This document shows positions 3,001 through 6,000 of a stretch of 6,433 nucleotides of DNA, in pieces. Made by a program: the position numbers. The DNA comes from a virus (taxonomy: Duplodnaviria; Heunggongvirae; Uroviricota; Caudoviricetes), in the IMG/VR virus record IMGVR_UViG_2547132269_000009, one strand, 5' to 3'. The stretch's first letter is position 1. Each line of letters starts with the position of its first letter.

Positions 3001-6000
3001 TGTTAAAGGGCCGCTCAGGCAGATTCTCCAGAATCACCGACGCCAGGTACTGTGAGGTGGTCTTGCCGTTAATGGTGACATCCTTTTCCGTCACCCAGTT
3101 ACCGTTACGCTGCAACTGAATCAGCAGTCGGACAGAAGAGGGATTACGGTCGCCCTTTGAGGTGGTCTCCAACAGTGACTGCACCCCGAAGGTGACCCGC
3201 AGGCGGTCAATGTTCGCGGACGTAATGGTGCGCGTCACCGGCTTTGCCTTCGTCACTTCCACGCCCAGTGCGGTTTCCGCCCCGGAGGACTCAAAGTCTT
3301 CAGGTGGTGTCTGCTCCTGCTCCCCGGCGCGCCAGACCGCTGTCACACCATGTATCACAGGATTACCGTCCGTGTCCGTCAGCGGGGTTTTGTTCACCAG
3401 GATACTCTGCAGCCCCTTCACCGGACCTTCAATCGGCCCTTCACCAATGGCGTCAATCACGCTCATCATCTGCGTGGATTTGAGATTGTCCTTCGCCTCA
3501 CGAGGTGTGTGCGCCCTGCCGCCACCTTTACCCATAATGTTCCTCTCAATTGGTATTATTAATCGCAGTGATAGGATACTGCACAGCTATTGCGCGATAT
3601 CATCAGAACGCTGTTTGTTACCCTGTAACCAGCAAGCTCAGTCTGTTAACGGAATTAATGAGGGTTTTATGAAATGTAAAATCATTGCTGCCATTGCCAT
3701 GCTGACAGCAGCATCATGCGGATACGCAGCAGAACAGGAAGTCCCAATGAACCTTGTCAGTGCTGACGGAAAAGAAGTCAGCATTGGAAAAATAACCATT
3801 CAGGAGACCCCCTACGGTCTGCTGTTCACACCAGCCCTTCACTCTCTGTCTGAAGGCATTCATGGTTTTCATGTGCACGAAAAAGGAAATTGCGCCCCGG
3901 CACTGAAAGACGGAAAACCGGTCGCAGCATTATCGGCTGGCGGTCACTTTGACCCGAAAAACACCGGCAAACATCTTGGCCCCTGGTCTCCGGATGGACA
4001 CCTGGGCGACCTCCCTGCGCTGTTCGTGACGCATGACGGAAAAGCGAACTACCCGGTCCTGGCCCCGAGACTGAACTCATTAAAAGAGATTAAAGGGCGT
4101 TCTCTCATGCTTCATGCTGGCGGTGATAACCATCATGACCATCCGGAGCCCCTGGGCGGTGGTGGTGCGAGAATGGCCTGCGGCATCATTCAATAATCAG
4201 TCAGGTAAGGGGCGGGCCCCTTACCTTTATTCCTCAGGACGATAAATCCTTTCTCCCTGAAAAGAACGGCACATCCTCCCTCTCTGAGTTAATGTTTTTG
4301 TCGTGACATAAGAATAATTCCTTACACTCAATCTTCGTAACTCTCCCGCAGTTCCTGTCCGTGAGCACTGCGGGATTTTTTCGCTTTTATGCCTGCCGCC
4401 CGATAACCACGACCTTTCCGCCACCGCCTTCATCACGGGTACTGATGTCCTGGGAGATTCGCCGGGAGCCAACCAGCATTTCACCGTAAGGCACCGGCAT
4501 CGGGTTCCCCTGGGCAATCATGTTATCCAGCGACGAAAAGTACGTGTTCTGTTTACCGTTATCCGTTGCCCTGTATTCCGGTGTTTTTGGCTTCGGGGCC
4601 AGCATCTGTGCCACACCACCCAGTATCATGCTGGCACCCAGTGAAAACAGCATCGTGGTGGCAGAAAAACCGCCGGCTGCCAGGGCTGAACCCCATAACG
4701 CCATTGATGCCCCGGCCGTGAAGAAAGAGCCCACGATGGCTGCCGCCCCCAGCACAATCTGCAGTCCACCCTTTCCGGCCCCGGCCAGTCGCGGCACAAT
4801 GTGGATGACCGTTCCCTCACCCAGTTGTTCGTGAAGGCGGGCATACACCGCCTCCGGTGCCGTGTCCTCACCAGCAATACGTATCTGGTACCAGCCTTCG
4901 TTCATCTGGCGGCGGAATCCCGGCACCTGCAGCGACAGGGCACGGATGGCTTCCGCTGCCGTGTTCACGTACAGGTTGAGGCGGCGGCCAAATCGTTGTA
5001 AATCCCCGTGAAGGCAGATGCGTGCCAGTGGCGATGACGCCAGACAGAATGCGTTCGTCGTTGCCATTTTTCGGAATACCTCTCCTGTTTACTCAGTTGT
5101 TCAGGCAGATGGTGAAGCAGCTCACCGTTGCCGCAGTATATGGCGGCATGATTGGCCACCGATGCGCCAAAGCAGCACAGCAGGATATCGCCAGGCTGTG
5201 CGGAAGGCAGGGAAATCCGGTAAAAACCAGTCGCCTCCATATTGTCCAGGTACAGGTTCTGACCGTTGCGCCACCAGTCATCCTCACGCACAAAATCCGG
5301 CAGCGTTATCCCCGCCAGATGGTAAGCATCCCGGAACAGGGTGTAACAGTCCGTCACCCCGTGTTCAAAGCGCCGTCCGGTCAGGTGCGGCACACAGCGG
5401 AACCGGTGAATTTCATCCCGGCAGACCAGCCACCAGGGCAGGGCACTCTTTATCTGCAGCCGCCGGTCTGCCTCACTCAGCCAGGGCAGACCAGCGGGAT
5501 GACTGTGAACCAGCGCCACAATCTCCCCCTGCATCTCTGCCCGCAGCCAGTCTTCCGGTGCGATACGAAAATACGCCTCCGGCTCTGCAGAGATATTCAC
5601 ACAAGGGATATACCGCTCCCCCTCCGGCGTTCTCACCACGAAGCCGCACGACTCCGCAGGCGCACACCGCCGAGCATGCGCCAGAATCGCTGATTCAGTC
5701 TGTGTCATAAACCGGGATTTACTGCGAAAGTTTATTAATGGAAAGGAAACCGCCAAAATTAGCCACCATGCCGCGCATCTCACACCCGCGCATGCACTTG
5801 CTGCATCTGTCCTTACGGATATCGGTGGTGGGTTTATCGAACTCATCCGCCACAGCCCCGCCCGTGTAACCACACTCATCAGAGCGGTAGGTCCACATAC
5901 AGGTATTCGCCAGCATAATGCGACCGGGAAACAGCGCTCCGTCCGTCTCCGTCGGTGTTGCCAGCACAAACGAGGCTGTCATGGCCGTCAGCTCTGACAT

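What the first reader, a model, noticed from the sequence alone, without database searches (positions are those of the whole stretch)
3536..4386. Opposite-strand Cu,Zn superoxide dismutase moron between tail genes I and J
A complete sodC gene with signal peptide, all metal ligands and disulfide cysteines is inserted antisense within the late tail operon. Prophage-borne sodC genes are known virulence or fitness cargo in Salmonella and enterohaemorrhagic E. coli lambdoid prophages, where periplasmic SodC protects against phagocyte-derived superoxide. Because the gene is intact while J may be degraded, the host may be retaining the cargo rather than a functional phage.
Basis: partly seen in the sequence, partly recalled or inferred. 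Interest (0 to 1): 0.5.

Follow-up and report, generated by a model that had tools for sequence, protein, structure and literature searches.

The report
Known prophage sodC cargo gene

Summary
Confirmed. Window 3536-4386 is exactly the spacer between tail genes J (start codon 3535, minus strand) and I (stop 4387). It holds an intact 175-aa sodC on the opposite strand (3669-4196). The protein passes the Pfam and NCBIfam SodC cut-offs. All Cu/Zn ligands, the catalytic Arg, both disulfide Cys and a signal peptide with lipobox are present.

The locus is 97.4% identical to E. coli O157:H7 Sakai prophage Sp4. The protein matches the published SodC-F1 (Leu112), which D'Orazio et al. 2008 characterised biochemically and genetically. 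The spacer is near-identical in 547 of 5,426 complete E. coli genomes.

Close relatives without sodC carry a different ~135-bp filler at the same spot, so the insertion boundaries are real. Salmonella Fels-1 has its sodC in the same slot.

One new detail: the sodC-less spacer encodes the published but uncharacterised Hfq-bound sRNA EcOnc22/23/24. The sodC cassette replaces that sRNA's promoter and leaves a promoterless body and terminator at 4283-4386.

J carries a 2-bp (CT)4-to-(CT)3 slippage frameshift. The window is a whole short draft contig, so a defective phage is plausible but unproven.

Verdict: already known, low interest.

The parts
3536..4386 (.). I-J intergenic spacer of the lambdoid tail operon (the finding's coordinates)
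   Evidence: It is bounded by the J start codon (3535) and the I stop codon (4387). It differs at 1-3 of its 851 bases from Sakai Sp4, strain 2003-3014 and Stx2_EH2201.
3538..4282 (+). sodC cassette proper, the segment absent from sodC-less relatives, which carry about 135 bp of unrelated filler instead
   Evidence: Alignment A1 with JLK-2012 and PhiR5_1; alignment A4. No flanking direct or inverted repeats were found.
3541..3549 (-). Shine-Dalgarno region of J (sense strand reads TTGAGAGGAACATTATG), supplied by the cassette's left end
   Evidence: The sodC-less phages have a different J leader; Fels-1 has a similar one.
3550..3577 (+). Best candidate sodC promoter, weak: TTGGTA-16-TAGGAT with an upstream TG, 8 of 12 matches
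   Evidence: Relaxed scan; the strict scan found none. The 299 bp upstream of the ATG (window 3370-3668) was used as the promoter fragment in the published RpoS-independent lacZ fusion, whose data were not shown.
3660..3663 (+). sodC ribosome-binding site GAGG, 5 nt before the ATG
3669..4196 (+). sodC coding sequence, 175 aa plus stop, SodC-F1 type (Leu112)
   Evidence: It is 100% identical to sodC of Stx2a phages EH2201 and EH1846. It differs from Sakai Sp4 sodC_1 only at L112P.
3669..3728 (+). Signal peptide (aa 1-20), with lipobox AASC and Cys17 at 3717-3719; the alternative signal peptidase I site lies after Ala20
   Evidence: The PROSITE-type lipobox pattern matches. Published LipoP prediction and fractionation are in D'Orazio 2008.
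4203..4232 (+). sodC intrinsic terminator: a 10-11 bp GC-rich hairpin followed by TTTATT. It is one-directional, with no T-run on the late-operon strand
   Evidence: I7.
4283..4386 (+). Promoterless homologue of the EcOnc22/23/24 sRNA body, with its terminator hairpin CCCGCAG...CTGCGGG and T-run (about 4345-4381) abutting the I stop codon
   Evidence: It is shared with sodC-less phages. The terminator was found. The identity with EcOnc22-24 rests. The promoter present in sodC-less loci is absent here.
4387..5067 (-). Tail assembly gene I (the lambda-like long form overlaps K; RefSeq annotates the shorter 4387-4968)
   Evidence: Pfam Lambda_tail_I; annotations; the lambda K/I overlap is shown.
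4965..5708 (-). Tail gene K (JAB plus NlpC/P60 peptidase)
5719..6417 (-). Minor tail protein L
   Evidence: Pfam Phage_tail_L, 296 bits.
64..3535 (-). Host-specificity / tail tip gene J, split by a 2-bp frameshift into 305-3535 (1076 aa) and a C-terminal remnant
309..316 (-). (CT)3 tract where intact relatives have (CT)4, the site of the J frameshift
   Evidence: The same short allele occurs in 3 closed genomes among 2,592 records that carry this J segment.

Best explanation
The feature is a sodC-F-type moron: a self-contained cargo gene carried in the I-J spacer of a lambdoid (Sp4 / CP-933-type) prophage tail operon.

Shown here: an intact SodC with complete catalytic machinery and an export signal, on the strand opposite the late operon. 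It has its own ribosome-binding site and a one-directional intrinsic terminator. It is head-to-head with J and tail-to-tail with I. It shows presence/absence polymorphism with sharp boundaries among otherwise near-identical tail modules.

Taken from the literature on the same gene (D'Orazio 2008): it is expressed in uninduced lysogens from a promoter within the 299 bp upstream, in log phase, stationary phase and anaerobiosis, and independently of RpoS. The product is a dimeric, highly active enzyme resistant to protease and EDTA. It is partly soluble in the periplasm and partly lipid-anchored through Cys17. Mutants are more sensitive to hydrogen peroxide.

Inferred: it removes superoxide in the periplasm and so increases lysogen fitness under host-derived oxidative stress. 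Because its terminator does not act on the late-operon strand and the cassette supplies J's ribosome-binding site, the phage can still read through to J during lytic growth.

The cassette displaced the promoter of the sRNA gene (EcOnc22 family) that normally occupies this slot. Spread is most likely by homologous recombination in the flanking tail genes.
For: Family and residues. Source and identity: 97.4% over the whole window to Sakai Sp4 and EDL933, with sodC_1 annotated. The protein differs from Sp4's only by the published F1/F2 L112P difference. Prevalence: 547 of 5,426 complete E. coli genomes hold at least 80% of the spacer, and 536 records are at least 99% identical. Boundaries: alignments A1 and A4 against JLK-2012, PhiR5_1 and Sakai Sp11/14/15. 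Phage lambda has only an empty 60-bp spacer. Terminator. Composition: 41% GC upstream and 53% in sodC, against 57-60% in the tail genes. Function, expression and localisation: PMC2569942. Analogy: Fels-1 sodC sits in the same slot and orientation. Gifsy-2 sodCI is highly expressed while the lytic genes are silent.
Against: No convincing sigma-70 consensus promoter was found upstream; the best candidate scores 8 of 12. Promoter activity therefore rests on a published lacZ fusion reported as 'data not shown'. A virulence role for the E. coli gene has not been demonstrated in animals; only peroxide sensitivity and abundance in Caco-2 cells have been reported. Nothing was measured for this particular strain. 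The mechanism by which the cassette moves is inferred only, because no repeats or recombinase sites were found.
Confidence: 0.93

Rival explanations
1. sodC is an ancestral, integral part of this tail module rather than add-on cargo, and the sodC-less phages are secondary deletions.
For: Fels-1 of Salmonella has a sodC in exactly the same slot and orientation. Its SodC is about as diverged from this one (60.5%) as the flanking I, J, L and K proteins are (62-76%). That is compatible with long co-residence in the module. Both sodC-bearing loci also have similar J leaders.
Against: The sodC-less spacers are not simple deletions. They contain a different functional unit: a promoter, the Hfq-bound sRNA EcOnc22-24 and a terminator. 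Phage lambda has an empty 60-bp spacer. PhiR5_1, a phage recorded on E. coli C, has tail proteins 92-98% identical but no sodC. The gene is antisense, has its own terminator and differs in GC content. Even an old occupancy of the slot would not make it a tail component.
Confidence: 0.04
2. The locus is a decaying remnant of a dead prophage, in which sodC is kept by host selection while the phage genes erode.
For: J carries a frameshift that removes the last 81 aa of the receptor-binding domain. The sodC spacer is 99.6-99.9% conserved, while the neighbouring I/K region differs by roughly 5% from the best matches.
Against: There is only one lesion, a 2-bp slip in a (CT)n tract. L, K and I are intact. 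The window is an entire 6,433-bp contig of a draft assembly made of multi-copy prophage sequence, so the indel could be an assembly or sequencing artefact. The same cassette lies in Stx2a phage genomes with an uninterrupted J. High conservation of the spacer is equally explained by recent recombinational spread. The rest of the prophage is not in the window.
Confidence: 0.25
3. The sodC ORF is present but not functional or not expressed in this context: a silent passenger.
For: No strong consensus promoter was detected.
Against: The ORF is intact with every catalytic residue. The protein matches the purified, active SodC-F1 at the one published F1/F2 variable residue. The upstream 133 bp differs by a single base from the O157 loci for which expression was shown.
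Confidence: 0.03

Closest known systems
E. coli O157:H7 SodC-F1 / SodC-F2 (sodC_1 of Sakai prophage Sp4; CP-933 prophages of EDL933; D'Orazio et al. 2008, PMC2569942)
   Same: It is the same gene. The protein differs from the Sp4 copy at one residue (L112P), which is exactly the published F1/F2 difference. It occupies the same I-J slot and orientation, with the same flanking spacer (1-3 differences in 851 bp) and the same lipobox AASC.
   Different: This copy sits next to a J gene with a 2-bp frameshift. The flanking I/K genes are about 5% diverged, which reflects a mosaic tail module.
Salmonella phage Fels-1 SodCIII (STM0924)
   Same: It lies antisense between I and J, head-to-head with J, in a lambdoid tail operon. 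It is a periplasmic Cu,Zn-SOD.
   Different: It shares only 60.5% aa identity. Its non-coding flanks are unalignable apart from the J leader. Only 53 bp separate it from I, and it has no EcOnc22-like block. Its signal peptide has no lipobox cysteine.
Salmonella Gifsy-2 SodCI
   Same: It is a prophage-borne, antisense sodC embedded in the tail operon. It is highly expressed in lysogens and is an established virulence factor.
   Different: It occupies a different slot, between the lom-like gene and L, and shares 58.8% aa identity.
Chromosomal E. coli SodC
   Same: It has the same fold, chemistry and periplasmic location, and about 61% identity of the mature proteins.
   Different: The chromosomal enzyme is monomeric, RpoS-dependent, limited to aerobic stationary phase, fully soluble, less active and less stable.
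EcOnc22/23/24 Hfq-binding sRNAs of Sakai prophages Sp15, Sp14 and Sp11 (Tree et al. 2014, Table S2)
   Same: Window 4283-4386 is homologous to the sRNA body and its terminator, at the same position abutting the I stop codon and on the same strand.
   Different: The TTCACA-N16-TATAAT-type promoter is replaced by the 3' end of the sodC cassette. The 5' part of the body is diverged. No Hfq peak is listed at the sodC-bearing Sp4 spacer.

Membership tests
Cu,Zn superoxide dismutase (Pfam PF00080; NCBIfam NF007628 SodC equivalog) | Profile score above the curated cut-off over the full domain | tested here: met
   Pfam 111.9 bits against a cut-off of 28.9, covering profile positions 3-133 of 133. NCBIfam 218.4 bits against 165.
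Cu,Zn superoxide dismutase (Pfam PF00080; NCBIfam NF007628 SodC equivalog) | Four Cu-ligand His, Zn ligands (three His plus Asp, with one bridging His) and the catalytic Arg | tested here: met
   H68, H70, H93 and H149; H93, H102, H111 and D114; R168. These align with human SOD1 H46, H48, H63, H120, H71, H80, D83 and R143.
Cu,Zn superoxide dismutase (Pfam PF00080; NCBIfam NF007628 SodC equivalog) | Intrasubunit disulfide cysteine pair | tested here: met
   C171 aligns with SOD1 C146. C75 aligns with the conserved Cys of the solved bacterial SodCs 1z9n and 2wwn.
Cu,Zn superoxide dismutase (Pfam PF00080; NCBIfam NF007628 SodC equivalog) | Superoxide dismutase activity | not testable with these tools
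   Published for SodC-F1 at 19,380 U/mg. The window protein has the F1 residue Leu112.
Bacterial exported SodC (periplasmic or lipoprotein) | N-terminal signal peptide, with or without a lipobox | tested here: met
   Lys2 and Lys4, a hydrophobic core, and a PROSITE-type lipobox match [11 protein letters not shown] with Cys17. Mature N-termini of solved homologues align from about residue 21. No dedicated predictor was available; published LipoP prediction and fractionation show dual processing.
Moron (autonomous cargo gene in a phage operon) | Present between two genes that are adjacent, or differently filled, in closely related phages, with definable boundaries | tested here: met
   Alignments A1 and A4. 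The boundaries are at J's start codon (3535/3536) and about 4283. Lambda's spacer is empty.
Moron (autonomous cargo gene in a phage operon) | Own transcription terminator | tested here: met
   Hairpin at 4203-4226 plus a T-rich tail on the plus strand only.
Moron (autonomous cargo gene in a phage operon) | Own promoter, with expression in the lysogen independent of late transcription | tested here: inconclusive
   Only weak sigma-70 candidates were found, at best 8 of 12. The literature reports that the 299-bp upstream fragment drives lacZ and that the protein is detected in uninduced cultures.
Moron (autonomous cargo gene in a phage operon) | Base composition differs from the neighbouring genes | tested here: met
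   GC is 0.41 in the upstream spacer, 0.53 in sodC and 0.47 downstream, against 0.57-0.60 in J, I, K and L.
EcOnc22/23/24 sRNA gene | Homologous body and intrinsic terminator at the I-proximal end of the I-J spacer, antisense to the tail genes | tested here: met
   Alignment A4 and a pairwise alignment. The terminator was found.
EcOnc22/23/24 sRNA gene | Own promoter immediately upstream (TTCACA-N16/17-TATAAT type) | tested here: not met
   The promoter is present in PhiR5_1 (11 of 12 matches) and conserved in JLK-2012 and Sp11/14/15. In the window it is replaced by cassette sequence, and no promoter-like site was found. The block is therefore filed as a promoterless remnant, not as an sRNA gene.

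The most novel reading that the evidence does not exclude
The sodC cassette and the promoterless EcOnc22-like block downstream form one composite unit. Partial read-through of the sodC terminator, or 3'-end processing, would yield an Hfq-binding RNA ending at the second terminator (about 4381). The prophage would then couple an sRNA regulator to SodC expression, and the I-J spacer would be a dedicated, modular cargo slot that alternates between an sRNA-only form and a form with sodC plus a 3'UTR-derived sRNA.
Probability: 0.1. Interest if true: 0.45.

Novelty: already known. Interest (0 to 1): 0.2.

Why it matters
Prophage sodC genes are textbook examples of lysogenic conversion. This copy adds another instance in a Shiga-toxin-producing E. 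coli-type prophage and nothing new about the enzyme. The modest added value lies in the anatomy. The I-J junction of these lambdoid tails is a reusable cargo slot. It holds either an Hfq-bound sRNA gene (EcOnc22-24, function unknown) or sodC, and sodC acquisition removed that sRNA's promoter. This gives a clean natural comparison for anyone studying what EcOnc22-24 does. It also gives a practical annotation rule for this junction.

Tried and rejected
1. I suspected the conserved block next to I was AgvB or AsxR. This was rejected because those sRNAs lie at the PR' moron site, and Rfam, which contains them, gave no hit.

2. The Pas sRNAs were rejected because they sit near the Q and lysis genes.

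3. A permissive Rfam search of the sodC-less spacer gave only sub-threshold noise; the best hit was MicX at 21 bits against a gathering score of 75.

4. I looked for direct or inverted repeats at the cassette edges as signs of transposition or site-specific insertion. None lay at the boundaries.

5. A 19-nt, 84% complementarity between sodC codons 30-36 (3758-3776) and the downstream hairpin (4352-4370) was treated as chance. Twelve other pairs of comparable quality occur in the same 1.1 kb, and the hairpin sequence is identical in the sodC-less phage JLK-2012.

6. An exact-match scan of GTDB representative genomes for the (CT)3 J allele found nothing. The allele was found in 3 closed E. coli genomes instead.

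7. By eye I noted a weak PhoP-box-like TGTTTG...TGTAAC motif at about 3611-3628. It was not tested and is not claimed.

8. Small minus-strand ORFs in the spacer (for example 4234-4368, 44 aa) have no ribosome-binding site and overlap the hairpin, so they were judged spurious.

9. A search of Tree 2014 Table S2 for an Hfq peak at the sodC-bearing Sp4 spacer found none listed.
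Full report
**Observation**

The window carries lambda-type tail genes on the minus strand. These are L (5719-6417), K (4965-5708, JAB plus NlpC/P60), I (4387-5067) and J (start codon at 3535), each confirmed by Pfam. The finding's coordinates, 3536-4386, are exactly the I-J spacer.

Inside the spacer, on the plus strand, is a 175-aa ORF at 3669-4196 beginning [17 protein letters not shown]. It scores 111.9 bits on Pfam Sod_Cu and 218 bits on the NCBIfam SodC equivalog, whose cut-off is 165. Its E-value to solved bacterial SodC structures is about 1e-62.

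Alignment to human SOD1 and to the solved bacterial enzymes places every catalytic residue. The Cu ligands are H68, H70, H93 and H149. The Zn ligands are H93, H102, H111 and D114. The catalytic Arg is R168, and the disulfide pair is C75-C171.

**Where it comes from**

The window is the whole of contig AEJU01000117.1 (6,433 bp) from draft assembly GCA_000208425.2. Over its full length it is 97.4% identical to prophage Sp4 of E. coli O157:H7 Sakai, where the gene is annotated sodC_1 (ECs_1120), and to EDL933. It is 97.7% identical to strain 2003-3014.

The spacer itself is much better conserved than its flanks. It differs at only 1-3 of 851 bases, whereas I and K differ by about 5%. At least 80% of the spacer is found in 547 of 5,426 complete E. 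coli genomes, and 536 records are at least 99% identical. The listed hits are mostly O157, O145, O111, O45 and other Shiga-toxin-producing strains.

The protein is 100% identical to sodC of two Stx2a-converting phage genomes. It differs from the Sp4 copy only at Leu112/Pro, which is exactly the published SodC-F1/SodC-F2 difference.

**What is already known about this gene**

D'Orazio et al. 2008 (PMC2569942) studied these two O157 prophage genes. They are expressed in uninduced cultures in log phase, stationary phase and anaerobiosis. Expression is RpoS-independent, shown with a lacZ fusion to the 299 bp upstream of the ATG, which corresponds to window 3370-3668.

[quoted passage not shown] The enzyme is dimeric, about three times more active than chromosomal SodC, and resistant to proteinase K and EDTA.

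LipoP predicts either signal peptidase I cleavage after residue 20 or signal peptidase II cleavage at the lipobox AASC. Fractionation shows the protein split between soluble periplasm and the lipid-associated fraction. I confirmed that a PROSITE-type lipobox pattern matches, with Cys17.

**Is it a moron with real boundaries?**

Close relatives have 92-98% identical tail proteins but no sodC, including phage PhiR5_1 (recorded host E. coli C) and JLK-2012. Alignment shows that homology breaks immediately after J's start codon and resumes at about window 4283. In between, the sodC-less phages carry about 135 bp of unrelated sequence. The event is therefore a segment replacement of about 745 bp for about 135 bp.

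The cassette brings several elements of its own:

- J's Shine-Dalgarno sequence (sense strand TTGAGAGGAACATTATG).
- A GAGG ribosome-binding site for sodC.
- A strong hairpin terminator at 4203-4226 with a T-rich tail on the plus strand only, so it should not stop late-operon transcription toward J.

GC content is 0.41 upstream and 0.53 in sodC, against 0.57-0.60 in the tail genes. No repeats mark the edges, so homologous recombination in the flanking genes is the likeliest vehicle; this is an inference.

Only weak sigma-70 candidates lie upstream, the best being TTGGTA-16-TAGGAT with an upstream TG at 3550-3577. The promoter is the one moron criterion I could not establish from sequence.

**Comparison with Salmonella**

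Fels-1 carries its sodC (60.5% aa identity) in the same slot and orientation, while Gifsy-2 sodCI lies between the lom-like gene and L. The Fels-1 flanks do not align beyond the J leader.

SodC divergence between the E. coli and Fels-1 copies resembles that of the flanking I, J, L and K proteins, at 62-76%. The slot may therefore have been occupied for a long time in part of this phage group. Phage lambda itself has an empty 60-bp spacer.

**What the slot holds when sodC is absent**

In PhiR5_1 the filler contains a near-consensus plus-strand promoter, TTCACA-16-TATAAT (11 of 12 matches). This promoter points into the block shared with the window. That block ends in a hairpin plus T-run abutting the I stop codon, and there is no plus-strand ORF of 20 aa or more within that unit.

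Tree et al. 2014, Table S2, lists three homologous Hfq-crosslinked RNAs: EcOnc22, EcOnc23 and EcOnc24. They are about 85 nt on Northern blots and are destabilised without Hfq. They lie in Sakai prophages Sp15, Sp14 and Sp11. All three map inside the 240-bp I-J spacers of those prophages, antisense to the tail genes.

The 3'-terminal 23 nt of the reverse complement of their Northern probe match the plus strand exactly, just 5' of that terminator. The table's coordinates are about 130 nt lower than in the current record. From memory, this fits the length difference between the two Sakai record versions.

The promoter is conserved in all sodC-less loci and is missing in both sodC-bearing loci, while the RNA body and terminator remain. 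Window 4283-4386 is therefore a promoterless EcOnc22-family remnant. No Hfq peak is listed at the sodC-bearing Sp4 spacer. That fits silence but does not prove it. I did not find this relationship stated in the papers I read.

**The J lesion**

Relative to Sp4 and strain 2003-3014, the window lacks one CT unit: GCTCTCTCTCAT becomes GCTCTCTCAT at about 309-316. J then terminates at 1076 aa, and the last 81 aa of the receptor-binding domain are stranded in another frame. Restoring the two bases gives a clean 1157-aa J.

The short allele exists in 3 closed genomes among 2,592 records carrying this J segment. It is absent from the GTDB representative genomes. It is thus a rare, recurrent slippage allele.

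In a short draft contig made of multi-copy prophage sequence, it could also be an artefact. The same sodC cassette sits beside an uninterrupted J in Stx2a phage genomes. The idea that the host keeps the cargo rather than the phage cannot be judged from 6.4 kb.

**Verdict**

The element is the known SodC-F-type prophage superoxide dismutase, so novelty is 'already known' and interest is low. The only addition is the anatomical point that sodC and the EcOnc22-24 sRNA promoter are alternative occupants of the same I-J slot.

Noticed in passing
window 4283-4386 (+); L003 5142-5273; L009 about 1137-1228: The I-J spacer of sodC-less lambdoid prophages encodes the published but uncharacterised Hfq-bound sRNA EcOnc22/23/24, with its own promoter and terminator. 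The window keeps the RNA body and terminator, but the sodC cassette has replaced the promoter.
   Followed up: yes
window 309-316 (-): J is frameshifted by loss of one unit of a (CT)4 repeat, which truncates the C-terminal receptor-binding domain. The same allele occurs in only 3 closed E. coli genomes among 2,592 records carrying this J segment.
   Followed up: yes
whole window: The window is an entire 6,433-bp contig (AEJU01000117.1, GCA_000208425.2) of a draft assembly. It is made of multi-copy prophage tail genes, so it may be a collapsed or consensus repeat contig. Single indels in it should be read with caution.
   Followed up: partly
L003 5081-5104 (-), equivalent region in L009 about 1040-1066: The sodC-less spacers also carry a GC-rich hairpin followed by a T-run on the late-operon strand, which looks like a terminator between I and J. 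It is preceded on the other strand by a C/A-rich stretch (CACAAAAACAAC). Its role is unknown, and it is absent from the sodC version.
   Followed up: no
window 3536-4386 compared with 4400-5600: The locus shows mosaic conservation. The sodC spacer is 99.6-99.9% identical to the best matches, while the adjacent I/K genes differ by about 5%. This suggests that the cassette has moved between tail modules by recombination.
   Followed up: partly
phage records AP012536.1 and AP012537.1 (hits H5, H6): In Stx2a_1447 and Stx2a_WGPS2 the matching tail region is about 2.5 kb longer and contains three IS66-family transposase genes between the tail assembly and host-specificity genes. The same junction may also take up IS elements. 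The exact insertion point was not checked.
   Followed up: no
window 3758-3776 and 4352-4370 (+): A 19-nt, 84% complementarity links sodC codons 30-36 to the loop and 3' arm of the downstream sRNA-type terminator. It is probably chance, because the hairpin is identical in a sodC-less phage.
   Followed up: partly
L003 5039-5278 against E. coli genomes: The sodC-less spacer is itself mosaic. Sub-segments 5-153, 78-238 and 133-234 occur independently in different lineages, including many non-STEC human isolates. Some part of it is found in 1,748 of 5,426 genomes.
   Followed up: no
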